NCBI GenBank assembly: GCA_017517745.1
Contig: JAFWYJ010000047.1
Coordinates: forward strand, 2,150-66,149
Direction of reading: 5' to 3'
From: Clostridia bacterium
GTDB taxonomy: Bacteria > Bacillota > Clostridia > Oscillospirales > CAG-272
DNA: 64,000 nt
A model generated the notes under the pieces. The model ran no database searches and was not told where the DNA came from. It saw only the letters and a program-made list of their open reading frames with translations. The translations under genes were made by a program, and so were the position numbers. Every line of letters starts with the position of its first letter. The first letter of the stretch is position 1. Of this stretch, positions 5,666 to 20,062 are shown one piece after another.

Positions 5666-5777
5666 ACTTATATTTCTCCTTATCGAGCTATCAACTTAAA
5701 TATTTTGGAAATAGAAAACACTTATGATAAACGTGTTAAAAACCTTTTGTGTAAGCCCTATCACAATTAACAAACAT

Positions 5778-6860
5778 TTATTTCTTTCTAAAAGGTTTGT
5801 TTTGATATAAAACTACAGCATCTTGATCGTTGTCTATTATATCTTTTACATCACGATAAATAAGTTTCTTTTTGTGTATGGCATAATCCATTAGTGGAAC
5901 AATTTGTCCCGTTTTTTCATTAAGAATCGCGGGGGCTAAATAATATTCATTGAATTCATAATATATTTCTTTGAATAGATTATAATTTTTAAAATTATCA
6001 GTGGGATTAGCTCTTATAATTCTTGAAACATTGAGAATCATTGTTTCGTCGATAACACATCCCTGTGATTCAGCACGTTTGATTGCTTCGTCAAGGTTAG
6101 TTCCAACAACAACATAATATCCTTTCTCTTCATTAGGAACATCTCCTTCGATTAATGATATACGTATGTCATCATTTACATCATTTTTTCCAACGCTCGC
6201 AATCCAATCTGAAAATATCTTTTTAGCATACCTCTCATTGCAAAAAGGGAGTAATAATGTAGGCAAATCTGTATACCCAACACAAAAACCTGCCCCACGC
6301 CAAACCGCTTTATCCCATGTTTTTATGTCAATAAGAGATGTTACAAACAAAGTTTTTCTTTCCTTTTTAGGTAAAGGTCGTAGTTTCCCCAAAGGCGGTT
6401 TTTCACTTGTCTTGACGCCTCTTAAACGCCAATATAACTTATCAAAGCCTTTGTCGGAACTTACATTGTAATATGTAGCTCCTTGAATTGGAGTAGGAAT
6501 ATACTTTAAATCATCTTCTTCGAAAACAACGGGGATAAACCGATTATTATCAGAACCAGACATGTATAGTTTCTGATAAATAATATTGCTTTCCCATTTT
6601 ACACCTTTGCCTCCGTCTGTTTTACCCAAAACTTTCTGCTGGTAACCAGAAGAACCAATGATGATTACAAAGTCAGATTCTTCAATTTGTCTTTCCATCC
6701 ATCTTGGCCACCCTTCGGACGGAGACTCTTCGTATTGATCCAACGAAGTATCTATTCCTTCTTGTCTAAGATGATTGGAGAATTGTAAAACCTGGTCCGC
6801 AAACTCTACTGAGTCTTGCGAATAACTGATAAAAACTTTAGGATTATAGTTTTCTTCCAT
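5778..6860 (-). CDS. TIR-domain protein with about 190-aa uncharacterised C-terminal domain
   Basis: 360-aa ORF. N-terminus KVFISYSQDS...SDFVIIIGSSGY is a typical bacterial TIR/SEFIR-like beta-alpha core. Starts 18 nt after the M48 peptidase stop, with an AAAGGGA RBS. Confidence 0.7.
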   Translation of the reverse strand: MEENYNPKVFISYSQDSVEFADQVLQFSNHLRQEGIDTSLDQYEESPSEGWPRWMERQIEESDFVIIIGSSGYQQKVLGKTDGGKGVKWESNIIYQKLYMSGSDNNRFIPVVFEEDDLKYIPTPIQGATYYNVSSDKGFDKLYWRLRGVKTSEKPPLGKLRPLPKKERKTLFVTSLIDIKTWDKAVWRGAGFCVGYTDLPTLLLPFCNERYAKKIFSDWIASVGKNDVNDDIRISLIEGDVPNEEKGYYVVVGTNLDEAIKRAESQGCVIDETMILNVSRIIRANPTDNFKNYNLFKEIYYEFNEYYLAPAILNEKTGQIVPLMDYAIHKKKLIYRDVKDIIDNDQDAVVLYQNKPFRKK

Positions 6861-6878: not shown

Positions 6879-7541
6879 TCAAAGAATTTCCATTATTTTT
6901 CGGTTTGCTTTCAACCAGTTTTGTTCCAATTCAAACTTCGGAAGAACAGTTCTTACCCTCACCCAAAATTGTTTACTGTGGTTTTGGTAATCAATGTGAC
7001 TTAATTCGTGAACAACGACATAATCAATAACAGACATGGGGCACATTACTAATCTCCAAGCAAAATTCAAGGAATTATTTTGGCTACAGGAGCCCCATCT
7101 GTGCTTTGCATCTGTTATCTTTATGGAAGTTGCTTGTACTCCCATCAGCTTCGAATAGCGTTCAACCCGCTCTGAAATAATAAACAATGCTTGTTTTTTC
7201 AAATACTCAGTTAAAACATCTTTCGAATGTTCTGAATTTGGCAACTTGATTACTTTGCCATCGAAGGCGACATCTTGAGTTTCACAAAGCTCAACGATAT
7301 AATCTTCACCAACAAAAGGAACAACATCGCCCGTTGACATCGTTATTGAAGAATACTTCTCGTCAAAAGTCGCTACACTATTTATTTTTTTAGAAATCCA
7401 CCCTTGCTTTTCAGCAACAAACGAGTTGATTTCCATAGTGCTTGCAATGTGCGGAGCTCTGACGATCAATTCTCCATTTGTATTAACAACCAAAGCAATT
7501 GTTTTTCTATTGCTACGAATTATTTGTTTTGGTTCTATCAT
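6879..7541 (-). CDS. M48/YgjP-like (DUF45) zinc metallopeptidase associated with type I R-M
   Basis: HELSH zinc motif (VVHELSHI). The ATG at 7541 overlaps the hsdR TGA as ATGA. This family commonly follows hsdR. Confidence 0.8.
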   Translation of the reverse strand: MIEPKQIIRSNRKTIALVVNTNGELIVRAPHIASTMEINSFVAEKQGWISKKINSVATFDEKYSSITMSTGDVVPFVGEDYIVELCETQDVAFDGKVIKLPNSEHSKDVLTEYLKKQALFIISERVERYSKLMGVQATSIKITDAKHRWGSCSQNNSLNFAWRLVMCPMSVIDYVVVHELSHIDYQNHSKQFWVRVRTVLPKFELEQNWLKANRKIMEIL

Positions 7542-10500
7542 AATTCGTTCCTTCCATAGTGGCAATATGCCAATTCCATGATCTTTTGAGCTATATTCTT
7601 ACGATTGCTGAAAACTGACGGAATTGAACTGAACAAAGGATTTCTCAGCAGAACATTGATAATGTATGTACGCAATTGCTTTTGAAGAGAAATATTGCCC
7701 CAGAAATTGATAGCACTTGTATTCTTCTTAATGGTGCACAAAATATCGGTAACAATATCCTTGAGTTGATTGAAGTCCTGTTCGGACAAATCCTCGTATG
7801 ACTTATCTCCGAAGATCTCTTTTTTTACTAATGCAAAGAAAGGCATCTCAGTTTTAGGATCAAAGCCATATGTGTTTTCACGCTCACGTCCAAGTATAAT
7901 ATCTTCCTGACGCATTTTTTCAAGAGCTGCGTAAAGATCGTTCCAATTGTCTTTTAGAAGTTGCAATATCTTATCCAATTTATCGCTCATTCTATCAAAG
8001 AATTCGGGGTCTTTAGGCTGATTAATATTGATATACTCTCTAATTGCGTAAGTTAATTCATCACACTTTTGGCGAACAGACTTTGTGCCCTTGTCTTTTA
8101 CCCCAAATTCGGGTGACAAAATAGAAACAGGCGGTATCTTGGGGTCAACTCCGTTAACCTTCAAGTATTCTTCAACAATTGCCCTTACTTTGTCACTTGC
8201 ATCATGCATGGAAAATCGAGGATCTCGGCAACTGTTGGCTACCGATTGGCGTATAAACGACAGCATTTTGTAGTCGTTTTTGTAATCCAATGCTGCAGGA
8301 TCGGGCAAAACTCTGTCAAACAACTTTGAAATTTGCCTGAACAGTGCATTGAATTTTTCGCGCAATTCGGGATCAGCAACAAGCTCCTGAATAATCAGCG
8401 GAGCTTCATCAATTGATTTTGCTCCAATATTATCTCGTATAAATTGCTTCATAGTCAAGAAAAAAGTGTGAAGCTTATCGATATCTTCTTCTTTCTTCTG
8501 CAAGACATCCAACATTTCTTCAATGTCAGGGTCTGCATATTTTGACAAAGCGGATTTAAGATGATTGGTAACACCAATATAGTCAACCACATAACCGCAT
8601 TTTTTATTATTTCCGCAGGTTCTGTTAACTCTTGCTATAGCTTGAAGCAGATTGTGATCTCTTATCACTTGATCGAGATACATAACCTGCTCAACGGGCG
8701 CATCAAATCCGGTTAACAGCATACTTTTAACGATAATAATACCGTAATTACTGTCGTTACCGTGTTCATCTTCTTCACCGAACTGCATCTTAAATCCAGC
8801 AATGATATTATCGTTTCTCGATTCATCTGCAAACTCTTTCAAATGAGGCTTATCGTTATTTGAAGAAGATATGATACAAGCCGCTTTTAGCTTCTCCAAC
8901 AATTCAATATTCACATTGTTGGGATTGCTTTCTTTCAACTCTGCAATTTTGATTGGCAAAAGTTCATTGATAGCACAATAGTAGCGATATGCTGCCTCTC
9001 TTGAGTAAGCAACAATTTGTGCCTTGAATCCGTTAACAAAAACAGTGTTGATGTAGTGATTCAACATATCGTTTGCTTTATTACGGATAACAGCCTTGTC
9101 CTCAAGATATGCTTTCAATACTGTTTTATTCAAAAGCATTTCTTGTTCTTCCGAAGTAATCATGCCGAATATATCGGCGAATTTTTCATTCATTGCTTCG
9201 GGATCTGTAATCTCACTCTCGGTGGCTCTGCCCTCGTATTTGATTTCAACAACGACTTCATCTTCCACCGCTTGACGCATGGAATAAGTATCTATATATC
9301 CACCAAAGGTTTCTGCCGTTTTGTCGATGGGCGTTCCAGTAAATGCAACCTTGACGGAATTCGGCATGGATTTCCACATGTTAGCCGCAAGATCACTATA
9401 TTGGCTTCTATGAGCTTCGTCAATCATCAACAAAATATTGGATGATTCATTGAGAACGGGGAAGCTTGTTTCTTCGCCACGCTCTCCAAACTTATGCACC
9501 ATTGCAATGGTGATGTCAGAAGCTGTATTTTGTATCAGTTTACGAAGACCTTCACTACTTTTTGCAACATGGCAAGTGTACTTTACGCTACTACTTGTCT
9601 TATATAATTGCTTTTGCAAGTCTGTGCGGTCAAGCAGCAAAACGATTTTGTAGTTCGCAAGATCCGCAGAATTGTACATTTTTCGGATAACGAACATCAT
9701 GGTAAGCGATTTGCCGCTACCTTGTGTATGCCAAACCGTACCGCCTTTATTAAAGGTGTTTTCGCCGTTGCGTAACCGTTCAATGATCTTTCTTGCACCA
9801 CGATATTGTTGGTATCTTGCTACGATTTTTAGAGTACGACCTTCATCATCTTCTTTATAAACGGTATAGTTCTGCAAAATATCCATGAAATTGGAAGGAG
9901 AAAGCATTCCTTGAATCAGTATTTCTTGACTCGAGGGAGCTCTGCCTTCTACGATGTCAGAGAGACGATAGGGATAAGGATCTTTCCACTCGATATAGTG
10001 TGCGTGTTTTCCCGTAATTGTTGAATAGCGTGCTTCATTAAACGACGTCGATATCATGAACTGATTATAAAAGAACAGTTCGGGAACACCTTCAGCTTCA
10101 GCAGCACCGCGACGATCCTGATATCTCATCAATTGCTCGATGCCTTCATGAATCGGATCGGTAATTCCGGGGGACTTACATTCGATTACAACCAGAGGCA
10201 AACCATTAACGAACAGTACGATATCGGGAATAATATGTGCACCGATTCCAGGGATTTGAATTTTATACTGCGAAATAGCAAGATAGCTATTAAGCGTATT
10301 ATTGGGATCAAAATGATCCACATCAGAGAAATCAATAACACGCACAGGACAATTTACTTCTCCCGTTTCTTCATTGAACGCGGAAAAGCCCAGTGTTATT
10401 CTGTCAAAAACCTCAACATTGGCGTCCAATAGGTTTCTTGAAGAATACTGTTGCATTTCCATCACAAGATCATCTGCTTGTGCATCGGTGAGCCAAGGGT

Positions 10501-10705
10501 TTAATCGAAGGAGTGCGGAACGAAATTCACTGACGATAATAACTTCTGACAACGAAGTTCTATATGAGCTTTCGGGATCATGCTTTTGACTATCATTCAG
10601 TGCAAGTGTTTTCCAACCTAATGCCGATAACTGATCCATGAAAGGCTTTTCGACAAAGCTATATTCACTTGCTCTGACTCTATCTCTTTCACTCATTTTC
10701 AACAC
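7538..10705 (-). CDS. hsdR: Type I restriction enzyme R subunit
   Basis: 1055 aa. Motifs TQGSGKSLTM (Walker A), MIDEAHRSQ (DEAH box) and QAIARVNR (motif VI). Position is downstream of hsdM and hsdS. Confidence 0.9.
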   Translation of the reverse strand: MLKMSERDRVRASEYSFVEKPFMDQLSALGWKTLALNDSQKHDPESSYRTSLSEVIIVSEFRSALLRLNPWLTDAQADDLVMEMQQYSSRNLLDANVEVFDRITLGFSAFNEETGEVNCPVRVIDFSDVDHFDPNNTLNSYLAISQYKIQIPGIGAHIIPDIVLFVNGLPLVVIECKSPGITDPIHEGIEQLMRYQDRRGAAEAEGVPELFFYNQFMISTSFNEARYSTITGKHAHYIEWKDPYPYRLSDIVEGRAPSSQEILIQGMLSPSNFMDILQNYTVYKEDDEGRTLKIVARYQQYRGARKIIERLRNGENTFNKGGTVWHTQGSGKSLTMMFVIRKMYNSADLANYKIVLLLDRTDLQKQLYKTSSSVKYTCHVAKSSEGLRKLIQNTASDITIAMVHKFGERGEETSFPVLNESSNILLMIDEAHRSQYSDLAANMWKSMPNSVKVAFTGTPIDKTAETFGGYIDTYSMRQAVEDEVVVEIKYEGRATESEITDPEAMNEKFADIFGMITSEEQEMLLNKTVLKAYLEDKAVIRNKANDMLNHYINTVFVNGFKAQIVAYSREAAYRYYCAINELLPIKIAELKESNPNNVNIELLEKLKAACIISSSNNDKPHLKEFADESRNDNIIAGFKMQFGEEDEHGNDSNYGIIIVKSMLLTGFDAPVEQVMYLDQVIRDHNLLQAIARVNRTCGNNKKCGYVVDYIGVTNHLKSALSKYADPDIEEMLDVLQKKEEDIDKLHTFFLTMKQFIRDNIGAKSIDEAPLIIQELVADPELREKFNALFRQISKLFDRVLPDPAALDYKNDYKMLSFIRQSVANSCRDPRFSMHDASDKVRAIVEEYLKVNGVDPKIPPVSILSPEFGVKDKGTKSVRQKCDELTYAIREYININQPKDPEFFDRMSDKLDKILQLLKDNWNDLYAALEKMRQEDIILGRERENTYGFDPKTEMPFFALVKKEIFGDKSYEDLSEQDFNQLKDIVTDILCTIKKNTSAINFWGNISLQKQLRTYIINVLLRNPLFSSIPSVFSNRKNIAQKIMELAYCHYGRNEL

Positions 10706-11975
10706 TCCTTTCTAATAACGGGTCTACGGATACTTTGTGTGTTAGGAGATCTTGCATCAAACCGTTTTTTACCGCAAAATATTTTGATAAATTAAGCATC
10801 TCAACTGCTATTTTCGAATCGATAGAATTCAAACGAGATACAATAACTTCTTGTTCTTTAACGTCCCGAGGAAGTGCAATCAAAAAACTTTCGAGTTCTT
10901 TTTTGGGCAATTCCAAAAATGTAGTTCCAGAAGAAACACGTTCAAGAGAAGATTTCTTTCCTATCAAGCTATAATACAAATACTCGCTAACAATAAGCTC
11001 ATTAGGAACTATGGATTTACATCCTTGGTTATGGGAAAACGGGACGCGTACAATTGCACAATATCCTACGGGTGCTCGACAAGAGATAATAAAAGAGTTT
11101 GGAGGCAATAGTTGCCTTGTTGCTTGATTTAGTCCTTTATCCGTGATTTTCCTCTCAGAAGAAAAAACATATTTCCCTGATATGTTACTTAAGTCATTTG
11201 GAGTTATCCAAACATGTGTTTCGCCCCAATTGGAACTATCATTTGTTTTAGGGGTTGATCCTCCTAAAACCGTACCTAAACGTAGTATCGGCATAGCATC
11301 CCATTCAACGGGAATCTTGCCCAAAGGGGAATCTTTATACTTATGTGTTTTTGGAGAACGAATTACGCCGTTTTCGTCTATGCCATTGACCAGAAGATCC
11401 TGCATTAAGCCTTCTTTTATAGCCTTGTATTTTTCAATAATGGCTTTAGTTTTACCAATTACTTCATCGACCGTTGCAAGAATTTGAGCAATTTTTTCTT
11501 GCTCAGCTTTTTGTTTAGGATATGTGAAAGAAAACTTGTAGAAATGTTCTTGATTTAGATGCTTAATAGTTGATCCAGTCAAAATATTTCTCATAAACAA
11601 TTCAAACACATGAGAGTTTAAAACATAGTACAGATATTTGGAATTCAATTCGCGATTCAGCTGATGCAATACAAACACACCACTATTTAAAGCTGCTTGG
11701 GGCGGACAATTTGTTGCTACTGCTGTTTTGCCAATTGTTCCATCTTTTGTGATCAGCAAATCGTTTTCGTGAATTTGTATTCCAGTGTCCTGATTGTATC
11801 TTGCTTCTGAAATGCGATAACACTCATCCCAAGAAATTTTTCCATCATGAAAATTAGTACCCGTAATTAAATAGGGGCCGTCATCCAAAAACTCATGTGC
11901 TTTTAACCCTTGCCATCCTATACGTGCTCGCAGCCTATATAAGTCGCATATGGTTTTTTGACTCCACTCACCCAT
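10689..11975 (-). CDS. hsdS: Type I R-M specificity subunit (two target-recognition domains)
   Basis: 428 aa with two TRD halves separated by conserved helical spacers (KEGLMQDLL and KNGLMQDLL). Overlaps hsdM by 8 nt and hsdR by 17 nt. Confidence 0.85.
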
Positions 11976-14538
11976 TGATATACCCCAAACCTTTCAAGAA
12001 AGCATTAAGCGCTTTTTCCGCGTTAGAACGATCTGTGAGCAACGAATTAAGACTTGTAAAATATTTATCGTACAGATGTTGAACCGCTTTAACCGTTTTA
12101 TTTGATTCTTCTTTCAAATACTTATCAAGCTCTTGCACAAATCCTTCGTGAAGTATTTGCATGATCAAAGTCTCGCACTGTTCTTCTGTCAGTTCAATGC
12201 GGATAGCATCGATTTTTGCTTCCAATTCCTCGGTTTTTTTCTTAAGGATCTTGTTAAGATTTGTTTTAACTTTTTTGAGCTCGGTGATTCTCTTAAGTTG
12301 CTGTTTCGCCAATTCTACATCTTTCGCGTTCTTGGAGTTGTTTTTGATTGCATTCAGATATGCTCTTACAGTCTTTTCACTTACCTCAACTTCTTCGCCA
12401 TCTTCATCTGTTTCGGTGTCCATTTCTATGCTTGCAAGATATTCATCAAACTCGTTTTGTGCATCGGCAATAGACTTTTCGAGGTCGGCAATTGCAGCAA
12501 GTTCTTCAGGGAAGTGTTCAGTTGCAATTTTTTCATCGGAAACAAGCGCAGCAACAAAGCCCTCAGAACGAATCGTTTTGAAGACATTTTTAATCATGAT
12601 AACTTCTTTAACAGTTACCTTGGTTTCTGTTCCATCCGACGAAGTTTCAATTTCGGTTGACTCACGAACTGTATAGCTGTGATCCCACCAGTTAGCAAAA
12701 ACACCATTGCTTTGGAAGTTGTCAAGAATGCCGACAGGAGTTAATTCTGCTTCCAAAGCGGTGGTATAGGTTTTCTTGAAATTATATATATCAAGCTTTT
12801 CATGGATGTTTCTGATATCAACGATGGCTTTGCTCCAAAAGCTTTCAAAAGCAGCGTGCATTCTATCGTTTGCGCCGGTAACACCTTCACACGAAAGAAT
12901 AGTGTCCTTTATACCTTGTTTTGTGGAACAATTGCTATTAAACAAACAAAATTCATCGGTATACTCATCAAAAATAACATCCTCGGAAATGCCGTATTTC
13001 GCAATTTTACCGTTAAGCGCCGCTATTTCCGTCTTGGGTACGCCGCCTGAAATATGCGCACGCACATTGTGGGGCTCTTGTGCAGGACTATTATCTACAT
13101 AACGGCGAATATTCAAGTTGCTGTCGTTTGTATCCTCGTTAAGGATATCATCAATAGAGATGAATTTTGAATATCCGGGGACTTCCAATTTGTTATCAAA
13201 GACATTTACGATTTTTTCGCTATCTTCGGGGCGAAGATAGTTCTGATTTTTGCCCTCGCCATATTCCGCATCTGCGTTAATAATCAGAATACGTCTGTCC
13301 TTTACCTTCTTCTTATTAACAACAATCAAGCAAGTAGGGATGCTTGTCCCGTAAAACAAATCCGGAGGCAAACTGATAATTGCTTCAATGATATCATCAT
13401 CAAGGATGCCGCTTCTGATAACTTTTTCCTGACCACCACGGAACAAAACACCATGAGGCATAACGGTAATCATCATGCCGTCGGGCTTCAAACTTGCAAT
13501 CATGTGCTGAACGAACATAAGGTCTGCTTTTTTGCCTGTTTCGGGAGCCCAACCATAGCAAAAACGATTTTGACAAATCATCTTGTCGCTACGCTTGTAG
13601 TTCTGAGAGAAGGGTGGGTTCGCAATAACTCGGTCAAATTGTTTTGTGTTGCCATTTTCTACCCAATGCGGTGTTTCCAGTGTATCTCCGTTTTCGATGT
13701 TTGCATCGGGAATATCGTGCATAATCATATTCATCTTACAAATAGACCATACACTCGCCGCATCATCCTGTCCGTAAAGTGCCAAATTGGTAGCATTTTG
13801 ACCTTGCTGCTCTACATACTGTTTGCTCTGAATCAGCATACCGCCCGAGCCAACGGTGGGGTCGTATATTTCGTTACCTTCCTGAGGCTTAATAAGACGA
13901 ACCATAAGTTGAACAACAGAAGCAGGGGTATAGAATTCGCCCCCCTTTTTGCCTGCGCTATCGGCAAAGTTCTTAATCATATACTCGTAAGCTGCACCAA
14001 GCAAATCGGGAAATACGAAGTTGTCATTTGTAAGCTTGTACTTGTTGAAATGACGGATAAGATCAATAAGCTTAGCATCGCTGATGATCTGTTTGCTTTT
14101 TACCTTTTTAGCAAAATCAATAGAGTCAAATACTCCGGTCAGTTCAACGTTGCTACGTGAAATCTCCAAAAGTGCACGCTTAAGTCGGGAAGCAACCGAT
14201 ACCTTGAGGTGTAATACACCCGAGAATTCTTCTTCGGGTCTACTATTGGGAACGATAAAAGGTTCGCATTCCCAACGTGCCAGTTTAGGAACAAAGAATG
14301 TAGCTCCGTAAGATTCGGGATCTTCCAGTCTTTCGGCAATCTGCGCCTCGGTATTTCCGTCTTTGCGATATTCAGCCTCGAGTTGCTTTCTCTTTTGCAT
14401 GAAGTTGTCAGACAGACGCTTCAAGAATAACATTCCAAAAATGTATTCCTTAAACTCGGAAGCATCCATTTTTCCTCTAAGTATATCAGCAGCTTTTAAT
14501 AGATAGTTTTCTAACTGTGAAATTGTTATTTTGCTCAT
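11968..14538 (-). CDS. hsdM: Type I R-M N6-adenine DNA methyltransferase with about 350-aa coiled-coil-rich C-terminal extension
   Basis: 856 aa. HsdM_N-like start ([25 protein letters not shown]), an AdoMet region, and the catalytic NPPF motif (VIANPPFS). The C-terminal third is E/K-rich. Confidence 0.9.
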
Positions 14539-14607: not shown

Positions 14608-15441
14608 TTATGCGTTAAGCAGAATGACAGAATTTGCAATTCGTTTTTCTCCCCCAACAGGAGTAGTATAAAAACGCTGTTCGATTCCGAACAAAAGTTT
14701 TTTCATATCATCTTCAGTTCCTATATTAAACGAATTTTCTGAAACTTGAAGTTCGGGGCAGTAACTACCAATATAAGCAAAGATGTTTTTTCTATCATCT
14801 TCTTCGAGTTCGCTCAATGTTTTCATTGCTAAAGCTATTCTTTTTCTATTAGGTGTTTTAACACTTTTTGCAGAATAGCCATCCGTTAGATTTATAAAGT
14901 CATTATTCAAGAACTGCGTTGTTTCTTCTTCGGTTGCTTCGCGATAAAGTTGGTCAATTCCTTTAAATATACTTGTAATAGCTTCAAGTCGCTTAAAATA
15001 CAAGATGTCGTTCGACTTGTCATAGATTGCATCGGGCAGATCATTGATAACTATTTCACTACAGTCATCTTGATATTCGTATGCTTCACCCAAGGCGAGT
15101 ACACGCCTCTTAGAAAGCAACTTTGATTTAGATGTATTTTGAAATGCTATATAGTTATCAGACAACACGAAGATGAAGTCAATTCGTGAAAAATCTTTTC
15201 TATCTAACGTTTGGAAATCGACAGCTGTATCGGTTGACGATAGAAGATCAATAGCATACTCTGTTTCCGATGCCTTCTCAATACAAAACCATTCACCTTC
15301 TTCAAGAAGCGTACCCGGAGCGTATGTGATCGATAAATCTTTGGTAATCGTAGGAATATTGTACAACGCACCATCCACAGAAATAATAGCCCTGTACTTA
15401 TTTTTCTCTCTTTGTTTTAACTTGGCACAAATACTATCCAT
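14608..15441 (-). CDS. Soluble 277-aa protein, possibly KwaB/DUF4868-like
   Basis: Clean ORF. Its start overlaps the stop of the upstream 4-TM gene (ATGGATAG). The architecture matches Kiwa, but family membership was not verifiable by eye. Confidence 0.55.
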   Translation of the reverse strand: MDSICAKLKQREKNKYRAIISVDGALYNIPTITKDLSITYAPGTLLEEGEWFCIEKASETEYAIDLLSSTDTAVDFQTLDRKDFSRIDFIFVLSDNYIAFQNTSKSKLLSKRRVLALGEAYEYQDDCSEIVINDLPDAIYDKSNDILYFKRLEAITSIFKGIDQLYREATEEETTQFLNNDFINLTDGYSAKSVKTPNRKRIALAMKTLSELEEDDRKNIFAYIGSYCPELQVSENSFNIGTEDDMKKLLFGIEQRFYTTPVGGEKRIANSVILLNA

Positions 15442-15979
15442 TTTTATTCTTCCTTCCTGTGAGTTCTATGAAAGTAGTGTCATTGATACGGTATAGGGTA
15501 TCAGTTGATAGTTCTGATGCTTTTCGAGCAACTGATCCTTTTTTTATCAAAAATATTCGCGTTCCACTTTCCGTAAGGATATTATAGTAGTGATATCCAA
15601 ACAGAAGGAAAATAGGGTTGAAATATTGAGTTTGTGATACAAGGGTAAAAACAAACACGATGACAAAAACAAATAGCATTGTCAAATGTTCTGAGACACT
15701 AATGGAAACAAAGAAATACCCAAGGTATATTGGGAGAAAATCTCCGTCTGCCAACGACAGTTCTTTACATCCTTTAAGCGTGTCTTTTTTGAATTTTTTT
15801 GTTATAAGCAATGAAAGTGCTGATAACGCAATTGAACATCCTATCAATAATAATCCCAAAAACCACACGGGAATTATCCAAAAAGTCCATCCATTTTTTA
15901 TCACATAAATTATTCCCATCCATGATGTAGCATTAAATGCAAGTAAAAGTTTAAATATAAAATTCATTATTATCCTCAA
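15434..15979 (-). CDS. Small 4-TM membrane protein with cytosolic tail, possibly KwaA-like
   Basis: 181 aa with four hydrophobic segments, then a charged C-terminal tail. Lies 21 nt downstream of the GIY-YIG gene. Ends in TAG, overlapping the next ATG. Confidence 0.6.
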   Translation of the reverse strand: MRIIMNFIFKLLLAFNATSWMGIIYVIKNGWTFWIIPVWFLGLLLIGCSIALSALSLLITKKFKKDTLKGCKELSLADGDFLPIYLGYFFVSISVSEHLTMLFVFVIVFVFTLVSQTQYFNPIFLLFGYHYYNILTESGTRIFLIKKGSVARKASELSTDTLYRINDTTFIELTGRKNKNG

Positions 15980-16000: not shown

Positions 16001-16849
16001 TTATTTTCTATAAAGCTCGTCCAATGTTTTTCCGTCCTTGTCCTTCCATTCAACCCAACCGTTGATGCTGCCGCCCAAAACGAACATAGCTGCAGAACTT
16101 GGTGAGGTGAAGGATACCGAAACAGTCAATTTGTACTTCATGTCAACGCAAACAATATTGCCGTTAGCAAGAGCCGTTTGGCGTTGCTTTTCCATTGTTG
16201 CGGAATGACACTTACGCTTTATGTCGATTTCTGAACCTTCAAGAACCTCGAAGTTCTCACCATCGTAAACACCAAAAGCAAGAATACCGTTTCGAGTGGT
16301 ATGTAAAGTGTTAGCTTCGTTCAAGGTAACCTTGGTGTTATCCATTTTGTAACCTTGAGTTGCCATAATGAACTGAATTTCTTCGTAAACTTCCTCGATC
16401 AAAGGAAGATCATATTCATCAATCTCGTACTTGGGATTGACTGAATTTTCCACTTTGTAGCGTTTGGAATCGTGCGCCTTGCCAATGGCATAAGCTTCAA
16501 GACCGCTTATCATATCAAGGGAGAAGGTTTTATTGTCAGCCAAAAACATAATTGCCTTGTTCCAAAAGTCCTTTGAACGATTATGATCATCAAGGCGAAC
16601 AACGCCATTTCTCGTCTGACCGATATAAATCTGAGCGATCTTGTTATCGTCGTTCTCGCTGATCAGATAGTAAATGCCAGGACGATTGATGCCCGAAAGC
16701 TTCTTTGCTTCTGACAGTAGAGGACGAGGAATAACATAGGTTGTCATCGTGGAGAGATGTCTGCGAATGGATCGAATTCCATCGGGCTGACCGTTGTGAT
16801 ATATGATTTCAAGCTTTTTGCTGATTCCCATTTTTGTTTCCCCTTTCAT
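16001..16849 (-). CDS. GIY-YIG nuclease domain protein with DUF4357-like C-terminus
   Basis: GIYYL...YIGQT...R...H motif series in the N-terminal half. The C-terminal part SPSSAAMFVLGGSINGWVEWKDKDGKTLDELY resembles DUF4357. An alternative start is at 16831. Confidence 0.75.
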   Translation of the reverse strand: MKGETKMGISKKLEIIYHNGQPDGIRSIRRHLSTMTTYVIPRPLLSEAKKLSGINRPGIYYLISENDDNKIAQIYIGQTRNGVVRLDDHNRSKDFWNKAIMFLADNKTFSLDMISGLEAYAIGKAHDSKRYKVENSVNPKYEIDEYDLPLIEEVYEEIQFIMATQGYKMDNTKVTLNEANTLHTTRNGILAFGVYDGENFEVLEGSEIDIKRKCHSATMEKQRQTALANGNIVCVDMKYKLTVSVSFTSPSSAAMFVLGGSINGWVEWKDKDGKTLDELYRK

Positions 16850-16850
16850 A

Positions 16851-17933
16851 TTATATTAAAACTTCCCATTTGCCGTAGCGCTTTCCGCTTTCACGACGGA
16901 TATAATTCTTATCTTGCAGGGATTTCATCACACGTTTAACGGTGCTGAGAGATTTTCCTGTGGTATCGGCCAGCTCTTGCTGCTTGATGTTGGGGTTCTT
17001 TGCAACCAATTCCAGTACCGCCAATTCTTCCAAAGTACAGTCCAAAGTATCAAATTGAGACTTTGGAACTTCAGAAATGACACTTTGGGAATCGTTTTCC
17101 TCCACATAATCCACGTGCATATATCTGTTTTTCAACTCGTGATTGGTTTCCAAGAGGAGATTTCCGAAGAACATTTCCAAAAATTTCGTTGTGGAGTGAA
17201 TGCCTTTTTGCAAATTGTTATAGTTCGCCCTGACGAGCGCATTGCGGAAATACCACGAATTCTTTTGGAAAGCATCGTTATTTACGCGAAAGCCAAAGGT
17301 TTTCATATATTTGATCATAAAGACGGCAGTCGCTCTCGTGTTGCCCTCGCAGAAGGGATGAATCTGCCAGATGTCAGATGCGAATTTTGCGAGGTGTCTG
17401 ACGGCCGCTTCTACGGACAAAACCTCGTAGGAAAACTGCTTTTCGGTTGCAAAATCGTAGTCCAGAGTGTCACGAATGCTGTTGAAATCCGCATAGATGA
17501 CCGTATCGCCGTTCAGCACCCATTCCTTCTTGGTAATGTTGTAGGTCCTCACTTGACCTGCGTACTTGAACACACCCTCAAACAGTCTGCGGTGAATGGT
17601 CATCCACTCCGCTGGCGAGAACTGAAAGCTCTTTTCACCGAGGAGCTTTGCGATTCTTGCGGAAACAATGTCGGCTTCCTTGGTCGCGTCCTCAATTTCG
17701 GTGCGCTCGGTGCGCTGCTCATAGTAGCTTTGAATGCGCTTTTGTGCCTCGTCTATACTGATATTGCCCTCGATATGCTCCTTGGCGGTATCCAAAAGAT
17801 ATTCAGAGGTTTTAAGACCATCAACCGCTTGCAGTCCGATAGCGGTTTGCCACGCCTCACTCTTTTCAATTTTGCCGGGCTCGCCCTGTTTTATATATTC
17901 TTCAAGTTCAAATTGCCAATTTTTCTCTGACAT
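16851..17933 (-). CDS. Fic family protein with C-terminal winged-HTH
   Basis: Fic motif HPFCEGNTRAT. C-terminal LADTTGKSLSTVKRVMKSLQDKNYIRR is wHTH-like. GGAGG lies 7 nt upstream of the ATG at 17933; the ORF extends to 17945. Confidence 0.8.
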   Translation of the reverse strand: MSEKNWQFELEEYIKQGEPGKIEKSEAWQTAIGLQAVDGLKTSEYLLDTAKEHIEGNISIDEAQKRIQSYYEQRTERTEIEDATKEADIVSARIAKLLGEKSFQFSPAEWMTIHRRLFEGVFKYAGQVRTYNITKKEWVLNGDTVIYADFNSIRDTLDYDFATEKQFSYEVLSVEAAVRHLAKFASDIWQIHPFCEGNTRATAVFMIKYMKTFGFRVNNDAFQKNSWYFRNALVRANYNNLQKGIHSTTKFLEMFFGNLLLETNHELKNRYMHVDYVEENDSQSVISEVPKSQFDTLDCTLEELAVLELVAKNPNIKQQELADTTGKSLSTVKRVMKSLQDKNYIRRESGKRYGKWEVLI

Positions 17934-17946
17934 ATTTGCCTCCATA

Positions 17947-18363
17947 TTACTTTTCGTTTTTCTGCCTATAAATCTCTTTCAGATCCTCGATTGCCACTTC
18001 GGGGGCGAGGGTGTGAAAGATAAGCCAATTGCGGCTCATGGTTTCGGCAGGAGCTTGGCGGTAGATGTCCTTACTATCCTCGCCTGTGGCGAAGTGCCAG
18101 AAGCGGTAGAGGTAGCCTGCCCAATAAAGCACCTCTTTATCGTACACGGTGCCGCCTTTGGTGAGCTCTGCGTTATCGGCAATCTCCGCGAGAAGATATT
18201 CTTCGCCTGCCCATTGCATACGATTGAACTTGGAGTCAAGTCCTTTGGCAACCTCGCCTGTCATAAACGCTTTGATGAAGGTTGCGCTATCGTAACCGTT
18301 CGCACCTGACAGCTCGAAAAGTCTGCCTTGTATGTCACACATTTTCAGTTGGAGTTCGTTCAT
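17947..18363 (-). CDS. Hypothetical 138-aa protein, possibly DUF3791-like partner of the upstream DUF3990-like gene
   Basis: Clean ORF. Its stop is 1 nt from the Fic ORF and its start is 12 nt after the upstream gene. The assignment rests on gene context and a weak C-terminal resemblance only. Confidence 0.5.
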   Translation of the reverse strand: MNELQLKMCDIQGRLFELSGANGYDSATFIKAFMTGEVAKGLDSKFNRMQWAGEEYLLAEIADNAELTKGGTVYDKEVLYWAGYLYRFWHFATGEDSKDIYRQAPAETMSRNWLIFHTLAPEVAIEDLKEIYRQKNEK

Positions 18364-18375
18364 TGTGTCCTCCTA

Positions 18376-19239
18376 TTATTTCGCCTCGTCAAGTATCTCG
18401 TCGTAGAACTTTCCTTCGCGGCGGTAGTTCTTGCAAATGTCGTTTGCAAGTGTTATTCCCCTCACGCGGTTGGCTTCGCTCTCGTCCTGAAGAAATCTGC
18501 GCTCCATCATCGAAATGGGAAGCTCCCTTTCCACTCGAACGGCTGCACACGCCTTTTCGGTGGTCGCTACGTACTGCTTTCCGAGTTTAAGGGCGGAAAG
18601 ACTATTAACGAGAGCCATATCTGTGATGCCGCCGGTGAAGAAGTTATCCAGCACGTAGAACATTCTGTCGTTTGCGATACTGCCGATCACGAGATCCTTA
18701 CCTGCATCAAGCTGACTGTATTTTCCGTAGAAGTCCGTACCCTTGATCTGCTCCATTCTGCCACGGTGGTAGGCAACAAGCATTGCCCAATCGAGATCGG
18801 CCTTGATCTCAACCGAGTCGAGCTCACGCATATCGATCGACACGATGTAGAACTTGGATTTTTCGAAATCGCAGATAAGCGTCAGCGGTTGTCCGGGCTC
18901 GGTGCCCATGTAGAAGCCCTTGCCGAAGTCACACATTTCTCGGCTCTTGGGCGCGATGTCGCCAACGATACCCGACTTTGAGCCGTGGTAAAGCAGAACA
19001 CGACCTTCTTCAAGTGCGATTTCCTCGGTGGCTGTCTTGATCTTATCGAGGATCATCTGATAGACGGGAACGCCCTGCGCCTTGCAGTATTCGTAAATAG
19101 TTGCTTGCGCCAATTTCGTGGGGAGCGCACGACCGTTTTCCCAACGGTTGACCGTAGCAAATGTCACGCTCAACTTCTCGGCGAAGTCGGCTTGGCTCAG
19201 CCCCAAATATTCTCTTATACCCTTGATTAGCTTTTGCAT
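18376..19239 (-). CDS. XRE-family HTH fused to a DUF3990-like domain
   Basis: HTH LGLSQADFAEKLSVTFATVNRWENG. Downstream LLYHGSKSG...CDFGKGFYMGT matches the DUF3990 signature as remembered. GGAGG RBS precedes the ATG at 19239; the ORF track extends to 19392. Confidence 0.7.
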   Translation of the reverse strand: MQKLIKGIREYLGLSQADFAEKLSVTFATVNRWENGRALPTKLAQATIYEYCKAQGVPVYQMILDKIKTATEEIALEEGRVLLYHGSKSGIVGDIAPKSREMCDFGKGFYMGTEPGQPLTLICDFEKSKFYIVSIDMRELDSVEIKADLDWAMLVAYHRGRMEQIKGTDFYGKYSQLDAGKDLVIGSIANDRMFYVLDNFFTGGITDMALVNSLSALKLGKQYVATTEKACAAVRVERELPISMMERRFLQDESEANRVRGITLANDICKNYRREGKFYDEILDEAK

Positions 19240-19278
19240 TTTATGCCTCCAATAGATATAACAAATATCATCTCTTAT

Positions 19279-19307
19279 ATTATACCAAATGTTATATCGT
19301 TTGTCAA
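19279..19307 (-). promoter_or_regulatory. Consensus sigma-A promoter for the HTH-DUF3990 operon
   Basis: Minus strand reads TTGACA-17 nt-TATAAT (plus-strand TGTCAA at 19302-19307 and ATTATA at 19279-19284), about 40 nt upstream of the ATG at 19239. Confidence 0.7.
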
Positions 19308-19317
19308 TATCCGTGCC

Positions 19318-19520
19318 AAAAAACATGGGTATTTTTTGAACAAAAAACAGCTTCAAAAAGTACCCATAATTTTGAAGGGCAAAAATCACCACAATCCCTT
19401 ACGCCGCCTTGCTTTTTTCTGCCTGCATTTCCTCAAATTACGTTAGAGAGAGGCTTCATCATAACGCAATTTCACAATGATTGTCTTTTTTCTTTCCGTC
19501 CCGGGCAGTCTTCACAATTC
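19318..19520 (-). repeat. Island junction repeat copy R2
   Basis: AAAACATGGGTATTTTT...AAAAAGTACCCAT terminator-type hairpin. Hairpin AAATTACGTTA (19435-19445) / TAACGCAATTT (19462-19472). Box CCCGGGCAGTCTTCACAATTC at 19500..19520. Confidence 0.85.
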
Positions 19521-19633
19521 TCCAGATTCGTGCTATTCTTAGGATGAGTTATAAAGCGAATTTGCTATAATGATCGTCGCTCTATGCCGATTTTCCGATT
19601 GCTTTGTTCGGATTATCGCCCTCTAATATTCAG

Positions 19634-19925
19634 AAAAACATGGGTATTTTCGAGTGAAAATTGGCTTTGAAAAATACGCCATGTCTCAACTGCGCAACAA
19701 TCCTCCTTTGCACATTTAAAAATGAAGAAATTTTTTATGTAAAAACCACCTTAAAATCGGGTGCTCTAATTACATAAAAAATTTCGCGGAAAAGTCTTAT
19801 TTTTCAGAGCATTCATGAGGTTATTGCTCAAAAATTACGCCAAAGAGAGCAGTCTATGTGGCGCAATTTCGCAAGTTCTCAACTTTACAAAAGCCCCCGG
19901 GTAGTCTTTGCAATTCACACAATTC
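19634..19925 (-). repeat. Island junction repeat copy R3 (long form)
   Basis: Starts AAAACATGGGTATTTT. Contains the perfect 11-bp stem TTTTTATGTAA / TTACATAAAAA, the hairpin AAATTACGCCA (19832-19842) / TGGCGCAATTT (19858-19868), and a box variant with an internal 9-bp duplication at 19896..19925. Confidence 0.8.
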
Positions 19926-20027: not shown

Positions 20028-20062
20028 GTATTATAGAAGTGAGTGCGAGGAAGGAGAAAAAG

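What the first reader, a model, noticed from the sequence alone, without database searches (positions are those of the whole stretch)
16001..19307. Tightly coupled four-gene operon: HTH-DUF3990-like, DUF3791-like, Fic-wHTH, GIY-YIG/DUF4357
Four minus-strand ORFs are separated by 12, 1 and 1 nt. They are driven by a perfect TTGACA-17-TATAAT promoter (19279..19307), which sits just downstream of a strong terminator hairpin. The operon therefore looks insulated and autonomous. It combines a DNA-binding regulator fused to an LYHGS...DFGKGFY domain, a small partner protein, an AMPylase-type Fic enzyme (HPFCEGNTRAT) with its own wHTH, and a GIY-YIG nuclease. Toxin-like enzymes sitting behind an XRE-type HTH are typical of toxin-antitoxin or abortive-infection logic. 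I do not know this four-gene combination as a named system.
Basis: partly seen in the sequence, partly recalled or inferred. Interest (0 to 1): 0.7.

Follow-up and report, generated by a model that had tools for sequence, protein, structure and literature searches.

The report
Conserved head pair leading swappable defence genes
The four genes are not one system: a conserved two-gene head (a DNA-binding protein fused to a toxin-like enzyme domain, plus a small partner) sits under its own strong promoter in front of anti-phage genes that differ from genome to genome, and the Fic and GIY-YIG genes are two of those interchangeable passengers.

Summary
The ORFs, the perfect TTGACA-17-TATAAT promoter and the upstream hairpin are real. 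The 1-nt gaps come from taking the longest ORF; likely gaps are 12, 13 and 19 nt. The gene run does not stop at 16001. It continues on the same strand through Kiwa, a type I R-M system, YgjP, bSEFIR and a PDC-S53 helicase to 2357.

In 80 species-level loci, g1 (HTH + DUF3990) is followed by g2 (divergent DUF3791) in all 75 loci with room. The genes after g2 vary: R-M types I-IV, Cas9, AbiH, GmrSD, TIR, Fic, GIY-YIG. All four genes occur together in only 2 loci. Of 62 Fic-anchored metagenome loci, 1 has g1.

The promoter and an inverted repeat (TATAACA/TGTTATA, 33 bp apart, bracketing the -10 box) are conserved even where g1 is only 65% identical.

Best reading: g1-g2 is an autonomous, self-repressed, toxin-antitoxin-like head whose promoter reads into independently acquired defence cargo. 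g3 matches PDC-S72 (SoFic-like, non-canonical motif) and g4 matches PDC-S14.

A 23-nt palindrome lies inside the Fic gene and at the far end of the island. In related loci it marks cargo junctions. Its function is unknown.

The parts
19279..19307 (-). Sigma-70 promoter of the head module: TTGACA (19307-19302), 17-nt spacer, TATAAT (19284-19279), extended TG.
   Evidence: 12/12 match; perfect in 57 of 73 loci; the spacer is 17 nt in 72 of 73.
19255..19298 (-). Presumed operator. Inverted repeat GATATAACA (19298-19290, inside the spacer) and TGTTATATC (19263-19255, about +10 to +20). The arms start 33 bp apart and bracket the -10 box.
   Evidence: Sequence; both arms are present at exactly 33 bp in 59 loci. 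They are nearly invariant even in the group with 69% or lower protein identity, while neighbouring non-coding positions vary.
19324..19368 (-). AT-rich hairpin followed by a T-run. It is one copy of a repeated intergenic element (D3).
   Evidence: dG -22.4 kcal/mol, z -4.1; second copy at 21191-21247, right after the PRiA4_ORF3 gene. It is conserved only in loci that share the serine recombinase backbone.
18376..19239 (-). g1, 287 aa. XRE-type HTH (aa 5-41) + DUF3990 (aa 82-234; Pfam ART clan) + a conserved C-terminal tail.
   Evidence: DUF3990 E 1e-28, HTH_3 E 1.7e-8. PDC-M13B, PDC-M13A and PDC-M42A. H85, D104, G106, F109, Y110 and Q222 are invariant across relatives down to 33% identity; 6198 relatives.
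17947..18363 (-). g2, 138 aa. The obligate partner of g1 and a divergent DUF3791 relative. Predicted all-alpha, but the model has low confidence.
   Evidence: PDC-M42B, E 1.4e-6; 52 of 80 homologues hit DUF3791; follows g1 in 75 of 75 loci with room. AGGAGG Shine-Dalgarno, 12-nt gap.
16851..17933 (-). g3, 360 aa. Fic domain + C-terminal winged HTH. Cargo module 1: PADLOC PDC-S72, SoFic-like.
   Evidence: Fic and HTH_24. PDC-S72 E 7.8e-133, SoFic E 2.8e-8; motif HPFxEGNTRATA in 93 of 93 homologues, and no [ST]xxxE[GN] motif; occurs without g1-g2 in 61 of 62 loci.
17043..17065 (.). Palindrome P (CAAAGTnnCAA-n-TTGnnACTTTG) inside the g3 coding sequence, in the linker before the wHTH. It encodes PKSQFDTL.
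   Evidence: present at the same place in all Fic homologues recovered (89 in-frame copies). Arm variants keep the symmetry (AT|AT, GC|GC, GT|AC) while changing amino acids. Third-codon-position conservation is 0.82 here against 0.60-0.67 in the sequence further downstream.
16001..16831 (-). g4, 276 aa. GIY-YIG nuclease domain + C-terminal DUF4357. Cargo module 2: PADLOC PDC-S14.
   Evidence: DUF4357 E 1.6e-19, GIY-YIG E 8e-5. PDC-S14 E 9.5e-67. GIY at aa 52 and YIG at aa 69; an exact 276-aa entry exists; follows g2 without Fic in other loci.
14608..15979 (-). Kiwa-like pair: KwaA (membrane protein) and KwaB (DUF4868-like). Cargo module 3.
   Evidence: KwaA E 3.9e-11, KwaB E 1.8e-15; no terminator between g4 and KwaA.
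6879..14538 (-). Type I restriction-modification system, cargo module 4: HsdM (11968-14538), HsdS (10689-11975), HsdR (7538-10705) and a YgjP-like metallopeptidase (6879-7565).
2357..6860 (-). bSEFIR (5778-6860) and a PDC-S53 SF1 helicase-like protein (2357-5665). These are the last cargo genes.
   Evidence: SEFIR and TIR_2; bSEFIR E 1.5e-61, PDC-S53 E 1.4e-283.
2058..2251 (-). Start of the conserved distal flank of the cargo slot (2251), with a second copy of palindrome P (2058-2080).
   Evidence: L026, L016 and L175 carry different cargo, yet their homology to the window resumes at 2251 on this side and at the g2 stop (17944-17952) on the other; the P copy.

Best explanation
The 3.3-kb segment is the promoter-proximal end of a defence island of about 17 kb and 13 genes on one strand. 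It is not a four-gene machine.

What is shown:
- A compact 1.4-kb head is one conserved unit. It consists of the promoter, a flanking inverted repeat, g1 and g2.
- The same head is found in many unrelated genomic contexts.
- In most loci it is followed, on the same strand and usually without a terminator, by defence genes that differ from genome to genome.
- In the window the cargo slot runs from the g2 stop codon (17947) to about 2251.
- g3 (Fic-wHTH) and g4 (GIY-YIG-DUF4357) are two independently mobile single-gene cargo modules. They are followed by Kiwa, a type I R-M system, bSEFIR and a helicase.

What is inferred:
- g1 binds the TATAACA/TGTTATA repeat around the -10 box through its XRE HTH. 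It thereby represses its own promoter, which is also the main promoter reading into the cargo.
- The DUF3990 domain of g1 belongs to the ADP-ribosyltransferase clan, has an invariant His and Tyr, and is used elsewhere as an Rhs toxin tip. I take it to be a latent NAD-dependent toxin or effector that the DUF3791-like g2 holds in check by binding. That makes the pair a type II toxin-antitoxin-like module.
- When the g1:g2 balance is disturbed (phage infection, or loss of the island), the enzyme domain acts and repression is relieved. The head would then both stabilise the island and set its expression level.
- g3 would act as a SoFic-like abortive-infection enzyme with a non-canonical active-site motif.
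- g4 would act as a nuclease of the kind fused to type IV restriction modules.
For: Pairing and cargo turnover
- g2 follows g1 in 75 of 75 species-level loci with room.
- The identical protein P0055 heads at least five different cargo sets.
- The first to third genes after g2 include Fic, GmrSD, type I, II, III and IIG R-M genes, Cas9-Cas1-Cas2, AbiH, TIR, Mrr, T5orf172 and DUF4357.
- Homology between loci ends within the last codons of g2.
- The slot boundaries are at 17947 and 2251.

Polarity
- The next gene is on the same strand in 53 of 68 loci.
- In 43 of 68 the gap is 150 nt or less and has no terminator-like hairpin.
- Upstream genes are heterogeneous and mostly not defence genes: 120 Pfam families among 131 proteins.

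Operator
- Promoter and inverted repeat are conserved at a fixed 33-bp spacing in 59 loci, including those where g1 is only 65-69% identical.

Autonomy of the pair
- In about 14 loci g2 is followed by a terminator and then by opposite-strand housekeeping genes.

Toxin-like nature of g1
- DUF3990 is in the Pfam ART clan (PMC7955679).
- It is the C-terminal toxin domain of Serratia Rhs5, which has a downstream immunity gene (PMC4524185).
- H85 and Y110 are invariant across 61 diverse relatives. They align with the HGS and GKGIYF motifs of PARP1.
- PADLOC matches PDC-M42A and PDC-M42B.

Independence of the cargo
- See the Fic-anchored census and the g4 contexts.
- Fic is 82-86% identical in loci where g1 is only 65-66% identical.
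- GC content is mosaic: 52% in g1-g2, 45% in g3, 42% in g4 and 35% in Kiwa.
Against: - Nothing here is experimental. Binding of g1 to the repeat, toxicity, neutralisation by g2 and read-through into the cargo are all inferred.
- I could not verify the ART fold. The AlphaFold models were poor (pLDDT 55 and 45). The profile search of PDB sequences found only the HTH. The hhalign comparison with PARP1 was weak (probability 42% and 9%). The third catalytic residue is not identified.
- In canonical ART toxin-antitoxin pairs such as Xre-RES, the HTH is on the antitoxin, not on the enzyme.
- Some cargo has its own signals. A terminator separates g2 from cas9 in L044 and L055. Palindrome P with promoter-like hexamers precedes cargo in several loci.
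- In L016 a GmrSD gene sits between g1 and g2.
- Most loci come from metagenome bins, and my gene calling in them was crude.
Confidence: 0.6

Rival explanations
1. The four genes form one integrated, autonomous toxin-antitoxin or abortive-infection system in which the HTH-DUF3990 protein, its partner, the Fic enzyme and the GIY-YIG nuclease work together.
For: The four genes are adjacent, tightly spaced and share one strong promoter. The same four occur in that order in L014, L028 and the window's own contigs L001 and L002.
Against: All four occur together in only 2 of 80 species-level loci, both with 92% or higher g1 identity. Fic lacks g1-g2 in 61 of 62 anchored loci. g4 follows g2 without Fic in many loci. 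The operon continues into Kiwa and the R-M genes. PADLOC models the genes as three separate candidates. GC content differs between the modules.
Confidence: 0.04
2. g1-g2 is purely a two-protein transcriptional switch for the downstream defence genes, analogous to CapH-CapP, CapK-CapS, BrxR/CapW or RptR. The DUF3990 domain would be a sensor or a self-modifying enzyme and not a toxin. The pair would have no toxin-antitoxin or abortive-infection activity of its own.
For: It sits at the 5' end of very diverse defence cargo, on the same strand, with short gaps and no terminator in 43 of 68 loci. The operator-like repeat on the promoter is conserved. Precedents exist for regulator modules upstream of diverse immune operons, some derived from enzyme-substrate pairs (PMC13373217, PMC9122601, PMC12255303, bioRxiv 10.1101/2022.04.27.489752).
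Against: The pair also occurs alone, followed by a terminator and housekeeping genes, in about 14 of 68 loci. The putative catalytic residues are invariant, and the same domain serves as an Rhs toxin tip (PMC4524185). There is no homology to any known regulator family beyond the HTH.
Confidence: 0.25
3. g1-g2 is only a selfish addiction module or a conserved hotspot flank. Defence genes accumulate next to it because the shared 1.4 kb offers homology for recombination. There would be no regulatory link to the cargo.
For: It occurs alone in some genomes. Cargo breakpoints fall exactly at the g2 stop. The pair is very highly conserved across bacterial families, which suggests horizontal spread.
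Against: There is a strong orientation bias: 53 same-strand against 14 opposite-strand neighbours. Terminators are missing precisely where cargo is present. No other strong promoter lies in the window's 17-kb array; the best internal sites score 10/12.
Confidence: 0.2
4. This is an integron-like cassette platform. The head supplies the promoter, and the 23-nt palindrome P is a site-specific recombination site at which defence cassettes, and even the wHTH tail of Fic, are exchanged. This can coexist with the main explanation.
For: In at least six pairs of loci with different cargo, homology ends within 0-4 nt of the right edge of P. A DUF6548+P unit sits at different positions in L005, L012 and L009. 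P copies lie 34 nt after g2, between modules, and at the distal end of the slot in the window, L026 and L175. The arms of P change in a compensatory way inside the Fic reading frame. Identity before and after P in Fic is less well correlated (r 0.57) than between two halves of the sequence upstream of P (r 0.85).
Against: No recombinase is consistently nearby; a serine recombinase occurs in 6 of 80 loci. The window has no P between most of its modules. P carries TTGACA or TTGATA and occurs in tandem arrays with half-sites, which looks more like an operator. A shared sequence will always appear as the end of homology, whatever its function.
Confidence: 0.2

Closest known systems
PADLOC candidate systems PDC-M42 (A+B) and PDC-M13
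   Same: g1 matches PDC-M13B, PDC-M13A and PDC-M42A. g2 matches PDC-M42B. The two genes are adjacent and lie in a defence island.
   Different: These are computational candidates with no published mechanism that I could find. The matches are modest (E 1e-8 and 1.4e-6 for M42). g1 carries an N-terminal XRE HTH, which about half of the DUF3990 relatives lack.
ART-fold toxin-antitoxin pairs: Xre-RES/MbcTA, ParST, DarTG
   Same: A two-gene operon with an ART-clan enzyme, a neutralising partner and an XRE-type HTH for autoregulation. DarTG2 also sits inside a type I R-M defence island (PMC12255303).
   Different: Here the HTH is fused to the enzyme, not to the antitoxin. The partner is a small all-alpha DUF3791-like protein, not a macrodomain (DarG) or an Xre/COG5642 antitoxin. 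There is no detectable sequence similarity to RES, DarT or ParT.
Regulators at the head of defence islands: BrxR/CapW, CapH-CapP, CapK-CapS, RptR and the C-proteins of R-M systems
   Same: A DNA-binding protein, here one of a two-protein module, is encoded upstream of many different defence systems. A conserved repeat lies in the promoter (PMC9122601, PMC13373217, PMC12255303).
   Different: There is no WYL, CapP-peptidase, kinase/STAS or RptR homology. The module is co-directional and usually co-transcribed with the cargo rather than divergent. It also occurs without cargo.
SoFic, a single-gene Fic anti-phage system
   Same: g3 is a Fic-domain protein with a regulatory C-terminal domain. It occurs as a stand-alone gene in defence contexts and gives a weak SoFic HMM match (PMC12249575).
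   Different: The best match is PDC-S72. The active-site motif is HPFxEGNTRATA, which lacks the second Gly and the last Arg of the AMPylation motif. The C-terminal domain is a MarR-like wHTH. A palindrome under selection at the DNA level is embedded in the gene.
DUF4357-containing restriction modules (McrB and GmrSD fusions) and PADLOC PDC-S14
   Same: g4 combines a nuclease domain with DUF4357, the domain found fused to type IV restriction proteins (PMC4619093, PMC11090510). It gives a strong PDC-S14 match.
   Different: The nuclease is of the GIY-YIG type. There is no GTPase or DUF262/DUF1524 domain. The activity and the target are untested.
Integron cassette arrays and pdif modules
   Same: A fixed promoter-bearing head is followed by exchangeable gene modules whose junctions coincide with a short palindromic element.
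   Different: There is no integrase next to the head. P is conserved in sequence and only 23-29 bp long, unlike attC. It is missing from many junctions and has operator-like features.

Membership tests
PADLOC PDC-M42 (two-gene candidate) | Protein A and protein B both match the HMMs and are adjacent | tested here: met
   g1 matches PDC-M42A (E 1e-8) but matches PDC-M13B better (E 6e-17). g2 matches PDC-M42B (E 1.4e-6). The gap is 12 nt.
Type II toxin-antitoxin with an ART-fold toxin (Xre-RES, ParST type) | Enzyme domain with the ART fold and catalytic residues | tested here: inconclusive
   Pfam DUF3990, E 1e-28, a member of the ART clan according to PMC7955679. H85 and Y110 are invariant. My own tests were weak: hhalign against PARP1 gave probabilities of 42% and 9%, and the AlphaFold model had pLDDT 55.
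Type II toxin-antitoxin with an ART-fold toxin (Xre-RES, ParST type) | DNA-binding domain on the antitoxin | tested here: not met
   The HTH_3 domain is on g1, the protein that carries the enzyme. g2 has no DNA-binding domain hit.
Type II toxin-antitoxin with an ART-fold toxin (Xre-RES, ParST type) | Toxicity of one partner, neutralised by the other | not testable with these tools
   This needs expression assays.
Defence-island transcriptional regulators (BrxR/CapW, CapH-CapP, CapK-CapS, RptR) | Encoded next to many different defence systems | tested here: met
   more than a dozen kinds of cargo follow g2.
Defence-island transcriptional regulators (BrxR/CapW, CapH-CapP, CapK-CapS, RptR) | Homology to one of those families (WYL, CapP peptidase, kinase/STAS, RptR) | tested here: not met
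   only the generic XRE HTH matches.
Defence-island transcriptional regulators (BrxR/CapW, CapH-CapP, CapK-CapS, RptR) | Binds a conserved site in the promoter and controls the operon | not testable with these tools
   A conserved inverted repeat brackets the -10 box. Binding and control were not shown.
SoFic / canonical AMPylating Fic | Fic motif HxFx(D/E)GNGRxxR | tested here: not met
   HPFCEGNTRATA. The Gly-to-Thr change and the loss of the final Arg are found in 93 of 93 homologues.
PADLOC PDC-S72 (single-gene candidate) | Full-length HMM match, and occurs as a stand-alone gene | tested here: met
   E 7.8e-133 over residues 14-350; present without g1, g2 or g4 in most loci.
PADLOC PDC-S14 (GIY-YIG + DUF4357) | HMM match, GIY and YIG motifs, C-terminal DUF4357 | tested here: met
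   E 9.5e-67. DUF4357 E 1.6e-19. GIY at aa 52 and YIG at aa 69.
Integron | Integrase gene and attI next to the promoter | tested here: not met
   No tyrosine recombinase was seen. A large serine recombinase lies upstream in only 6 of 80 loci.
Kiwa | A KwaA membrane protein followed by a DUF4868-type KwaB | tested here: met
   KwaA E 3.9e-11, KwaB E 1.8e-15. The two ORFs overlap.

The most novel reading that the evidence does not exclude
The head (promoter, operator, HTH-ART-like protein and DUF3791-like partner), together with palindrome P, would be a previously undescribed acquisition-and-expression platform for defence genes in gut Clostridia. Cassettes would be swapped at P or at the g2 stop and expressed from the head promoter. 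The ART-like domain would act as an infection-responsive switch, for example by ADP-ribosylation-controlled derepression, so that a whole variable island is switched on at once. On this reading the in-frame copy of P in Fic is a domain-swapping junction for its DNA-binding tail.
Probability: 0.18. Interest if true: 0.85.

Novelty: new variant of a known kind. Interest (0 to 1): 0.55.

Why it matters
How defence islands are assembled, kept and regulated is an open question. Only a few regulator families are known: BrxR/CapW, CapH-CapP, CapK-CapS and RptR.

Here a different module heads islands that carry almost every major class of restriction system, and CRISPR-Cas9, in abundant gut and rumen Clostridia. 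It is an XRE HTH fused to an ART-clan domain, with an obligate DUF3791-like partner and a sharply conserved operator.

This gives a concrete function to test for two domains of unknown function, DUF3990 and DUF3791. It also explains why PADLOC flags them as defence candidates, and it offers a simple anchor for mining new defence genes. Several genes that follow g2 have no Pfam hit.

It also corrects a tempting mistake: reading tight operon packing in a defence island as evidence for one multi-gene system.

Tried and rejected
- AlphaFold2 on g1 and g2. Only shallow alignments of 80-93% identical sequences were accepted by the tool. The models had pLDDT 55.5 and 44.8, so I ran no fold search.
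- Profile searches of PDB sequences. These found only the HTH and nothing for g2.
It aligned the His and Tyr motifs, with probabilities of only 42% and 9%. I count this as a lead, not a proof.
- Phage and plasmid collections. They hold no g1 relative beyond the HTH.
- Rfam. There was no family hit in 1300-24400, nor in the 5'-UTR insert of L026.
- Literature. I found nothing on PDC-M42, PDC-S72, DUF3791 function or the palindrome.
- P as a portable promoter. The -35-like hexamer is there, but a -10 box at the right spacing appears in only some copies. I left this as a possibility.
- Recombination at P inside Fic. An ungapped comparison was confounded by indels. The gapped version is suggestive only.
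- The N-terminal half of the Mn-catalase gene, sought to define the ends of the mobile element. It is not in the window.
- NCBIfam. It gave no specific names for any of the four proteins.

Full report
**1. The observation**

Four minus-strand ORFs lie at 16001-19392. The promoter at 19307..19279 is TTGACA-17-TATAAT with an extended TG. It is the only 12/12 match in the 7.5 kb scanned. Just upstream, an AT-rich hairpin followed by a T-run folds at -22.4 kcal/mol (z -4.1).

g1 starts at 19239 (MQKLIKG), downstream of the promoter.
- A GGAGG Shine-Dalgarno sequence sits between the first and second ATG of g3. An AAGGGG sequence does the same in g4.
- Gene calls on identical metagenome contigs use the second ATGs.
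- Related loci lack the first ATG.
- An exact 276-aa g4 protein is on record.

The likely genes are g1 18376-19239, g2 17947-18363, g3 16851-17933 and g4 16001-16831. The gaps are then 12, 13 and 19 nt.

The unit is not closed at its 3' end. No terminator follows g4, and the same-strand run continues to 2357.

**2. What the genes are**

- g1 has HTH_3 (aa 5-41) and DUF3990 (E 1e-28).
- g3 has a Fic domain and a MarR-like winged HTH.
- g4 has GIY-YIG and DUF4357.
- g2 has no Pfam hit itself, but 52 of 80 of its homologues hit DUF3791 (best E 1.5e-5).

PADLOC splits the four genes into three candidates:
- g1 matches PDC-M13B, PDC-M13A and PDC-M42A, and g2 matches PDC-M42B. Together they look like one two-gene candidate.
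- g3 matches PDC-S72 (E 7.8e-133).
- g4 matches PDC-S14 (E 9.5e-67).

The next genes are KwaA and KwaB (Kiwa), HsdM, HsdS, HsdR, a YgjP-like peptidase, bSEFIR and a PDC-S53 helicase. Upstream, on the other strand, lie DUF6933, PRiA4_ORF3 and a large serine recombinase.

The window therefore holds a defence island. GC content is mosaic: g1-g2 52%, g3 45%, g4 42%, Kiwa 35%, the rest 34-43%, and host flanks 49-60%.

**3. Census anchored on g1**

The exact g1 protein occurs on two metagenome contigs that carry the same island. The next results are more informative:
- A protein 85% identical to g1 (P0055) sits on 23 contigs. It is always followed by a 137- or 138-aa g2.
- After that g2 come at least five different gene sets: type III R-M; a 1350-aa ResIII+Eco57I enzyme; DUF6548 with type III R-M; T5orf172 with type I R-M; and DUF2971 with Kiwa. 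None includes Fic or DUF4357.
- P0001 (93% identical) heads an HsdR-DUF2971-HsdS set.

A scan of one genome per species gave 148 relatives, of which the best 80 were kept. They are 65-99% identical and come mostly from uncultured gut and rumen Clostridia.

| Feature | Loci (of the 80) | Source |
|---|---|---|
| g2 follows g1 | 75 of 75 with room; the 5 misses are contig ends | |
| Fic homologue present | about 14 | |
| g4 homologue present | 5 | |
| All four genes together | 2 (L014, L028) | |
| g4 directly after g2, no Fic | L020, L025, L061 | |

Where g1 is only 65-66% identical, Fic is still 82-86% identical. The cargo therefore moves independently of the head.

Among 56 loci, the first gene after g2 is Fic (12), GmrSD (4), ResIII (3), DUF4357 (3), Cas9 (2), EcoRI methylase (2), HsdM (2), HsdR (2), or once each AbiH, a C5 methylase and others. 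The second and third genes add HsdS, type III and IIG methylases, Cas1, Cas2, TIR, Mrr, HNH and T5orf172.

**4. Census anchored on the cargo**

I collected 80 metagenome loci that encode a Fic 68-86% identical to g3:
- Only 1 of the 62 with at least 1.5 kb upstream has g1.
- None of the 74 with room downstream has g4.
- Many read Fic-HsdM-HsdS-HsdR.

Close g4 relatives (P0444, 16 contigs) read g1, long g2, g4, HsdR, methylase, without Fic. One viral contig has g4 with no g1 or g2 in the 5.7 kb upstream.

**5. The head is a discrete, polar unit**

- *Conserved promoter.* Upstream alignments lose similarity just before the -35 box. From there on the promoter is conserved. TTGACA-17-TATAAT is perfect in 57 of 73 loci.
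- *Conserved inverted repeat.* TATAACA lies in the spacer and TGTTATA at about +10 to +20. The arms are exactly 33 bp apart in 59 loci. They are nearly invariant even in the most distant group, while neighbouring positions vary. In the window the arms are at 19298-19290 and 19263-19255.
- *Sharp 3' boundary.* Homology between loci stops within the last codons of g2.
- *Slot boundaries.* L026, L016 and L175 share both flanks with the window but carry different cargo. This places the window's cargo slot between 17947 and about 2251.
- *Varied insertion sites.* Genes upstream of the head are heterogeneous and mostly housekeeping: 120 Pfam families among 131 proteins, with few defence hits. The head with its cargo therefore sits at many chromosomal sites.
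- *Orientation bias.* The next gene downstream is on the same strand in 53 of 68 loci. In 43 of 68 the gap is 150 nt or less and has no terminator-like hairpin.
- *The pair can stand alone.* In about 14 loci g2 is followed by an intrinsic terminator and then by opposite-strand housekeeping genes, such as a class II tRNA synthetase in three loci.
- *One exception.* In L016 a GmrSD gene lies between g1 and g2.

**6. What the head probably does**

DUF3990 belongs to the Pfam ADP-ribosyltransferase clan (PMC7955679). It is also the C-terminal toxin domain of Serratia Rhs5, which has a cognate downstream immunity gene (PMC4524185).

Across 61 diverse relatives (33-69% identity), H85, D104, G106, F109, Y110 and Q222 are invariant. 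hhalign places H85 and Y110 on the HGS and GKGIYF motifs of PARP1, but the probability is low (42% and 9%).

My own check of the fold failed. The AlphaFold models were poor, and the PDB sequence searches saw only the HTH.

I infer an autoregulated toxin-antitoxin-like pair:
- The HTH of g1 binds the repeat around the -10 box.
- g2 restrains the enzyme domain.
- Because the cargo lies downstream without terminators, the same promoter sets cargo expression.

Comparable logic is established for other modules at the head of defence operons: CapH-CapP, CapK-CapS (PMC13373217), BrxR/CapW (PMC9122601, PMC11662680) and RptR with an embedded DarTG (PMC12255303). g1 and g2 share no homology with these beyond the HTH.

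**7. The cargo inside the finding**

*g3.* g3 resembles SoFic, a validated single-gene abortive-infection AMPylase (PMC12249575, bioRxiv 10.1101/2022.05.11.491447). Its motif, however, is HPFxEGNTRATA in all 93 homologues. That motif lacks the second glycine and the last arginine of the AMPylation motif. There is also no [ST]xxxE[GN] inhibitory motif. The label "AMPylase-type" is therefore unproven.

*g4.* g4 has intact GIY and YIG motifs. It also has DUF4357, a domain otherwise fused to McrB and GmrSD type IV enzymes (PMC11090510, PMC4619093).

**8. An unexplained element**

A 23-nt palindrome, CAAAGTnnCAA-n-TTGnnACTTTG, lies inside g3 at 17043-17065. There it encodes the linker PKSQFDTL. A second copy lies at 2058-2080, at the far end of the slot.

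*Signs of selection on the DNA itself:*
- It is present at the same position in every Fic homologue recovered.
- The arm variants keep the symmetry (AT|AT, GC|GC, GT|AC) while changing the amino acids.
- Third-codon positions are unusually conserved within it.

*Non-coding copies:*
- Non-coding copies lie 34 nt after g2, between cargo modules, and about 90 nt after some Fic genes.
- In at least six pairs of loci with different cargo, homology ends within 0-4 nt of its right edge.
- It carries TTGACA or TTGATA. In three viral contigs it occurs in tandem arrays with half-sites or just upstream of a ribosome-binding site.

It may be an operator (the Fic wHTH is a candidate binder), a recombination site, or both. 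Rfam and the literature offered nothing.

**9. Verdict**

The interpretation as a four-gene system is not.

The segment is a conserved two-gene head plus two independent cargo genes at the start of a long defence island. The families are already listed as computational candidates. I did not find described anywhere the head's constant pairing, its conserved operator, its position in front of highly diverse defence cargo, or the junction palindrome.

Noticed in passing
window 17043-17065 and 2058-2080; L003, L005, L009, L012, L026, L033, L043, L134-L163, L176-L178: A 23-nt palindrome, CAAAGTnnCAA-n-TTGnnACTTTG. It lies in-frame in every Fic homologue, with compensatory arm changes. Non-coding copies lie at cargo junctions and at the distal end of the slot. 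Homology between loci ends at its right edge.
   Followed up: partly
window 14608-15979 (-): A Kiwa-like pair (KwaA membrane protein, KwaB DUF4868-like) directly follows g4 with no terminator.
   Followed up: partly
window 2357-14538 (-): Type I R-M system (an 856-aa HsdM with a long C-terminal extension, HsdS, HsdR), a YgjP-like peptidase, bSEFIR and a 1102-aa PDC-S53 helicase-like protein. All lie on the same strand as the finding.
   Followed up: partly
window 19317-19526, 19634-19922, 21191-21400 and 1832-1861: A composite intergenic repeat of about 200 nt: hairpin D3, then a 46-nt D2, then a 30-nt D1 (CGnCCCGGGCAGTCnTCACAATTCT). Three copies lie between g1 and the serine recombinase. A lone D1 lies at the far end of the island, so D1 copies flank the head plus its cargo in direct orientation.
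   Followed up: no
window 22024-23583 (+) and 23673-23846 (+): A large serine recombinase (Resolvase, Recombinase, Zn ribbon, DUF4368) is followed at once by only the C-terminal ~58 aa of a Mn-catalase (CotJC-like) gene. The N-terminal part is nowhere in the 64 kb. This may be a remnant of an element that inserted into that gene.
   Followed up: partly
L016 4385-6514: A 709-aa GmrSD type IV restriction gene is inserted between g1 and g2, so a cassette can also sit inside the head.
   Followed up: partly
L026 9858-9989; also L016, L020, L022: A GC-rich, structured insert of about 132 nt lies in the 5' UTR of g1, between the right operator arm and the ribosome-binding site (dG -55.3 kcal/mol, z -2.8). 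It has no Rfam match.
   Followed up: partly
L019, L020, L025, L027, L035, L042, L179-L186; L026 11309-11632: g2 carries a C-terminal extension of about 100 aa (239-242 aa in total) in many loci. In L026 a related sequence is a separate 108-aa ORF. It has no Pfam hit.
   Followed up: no
L044 and L055: The head lies directly upstream of a complete type II CRISPR-Cas locus (cas9, cas1, cas2 and a ~220-aa gene). A terminator hairpin separates g2 from cas9.
   Followed up: no
window 20039-21184 (+): DUF6933 and PRiA4_ORF3 genes lie divergent from g1 behind an 11/12 promoter (20000-20027). They travel with the serine recombinase in 6 of the 80 loci.
   Followed up: no
L003 7430-8713, L004 7284-8852, L009 2026-2868: Several first genes after g2 (428, 187, 325 and 281 aa) have no Pfam hit. 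Their position makes them candidate new defence genes.
   Followed up: no
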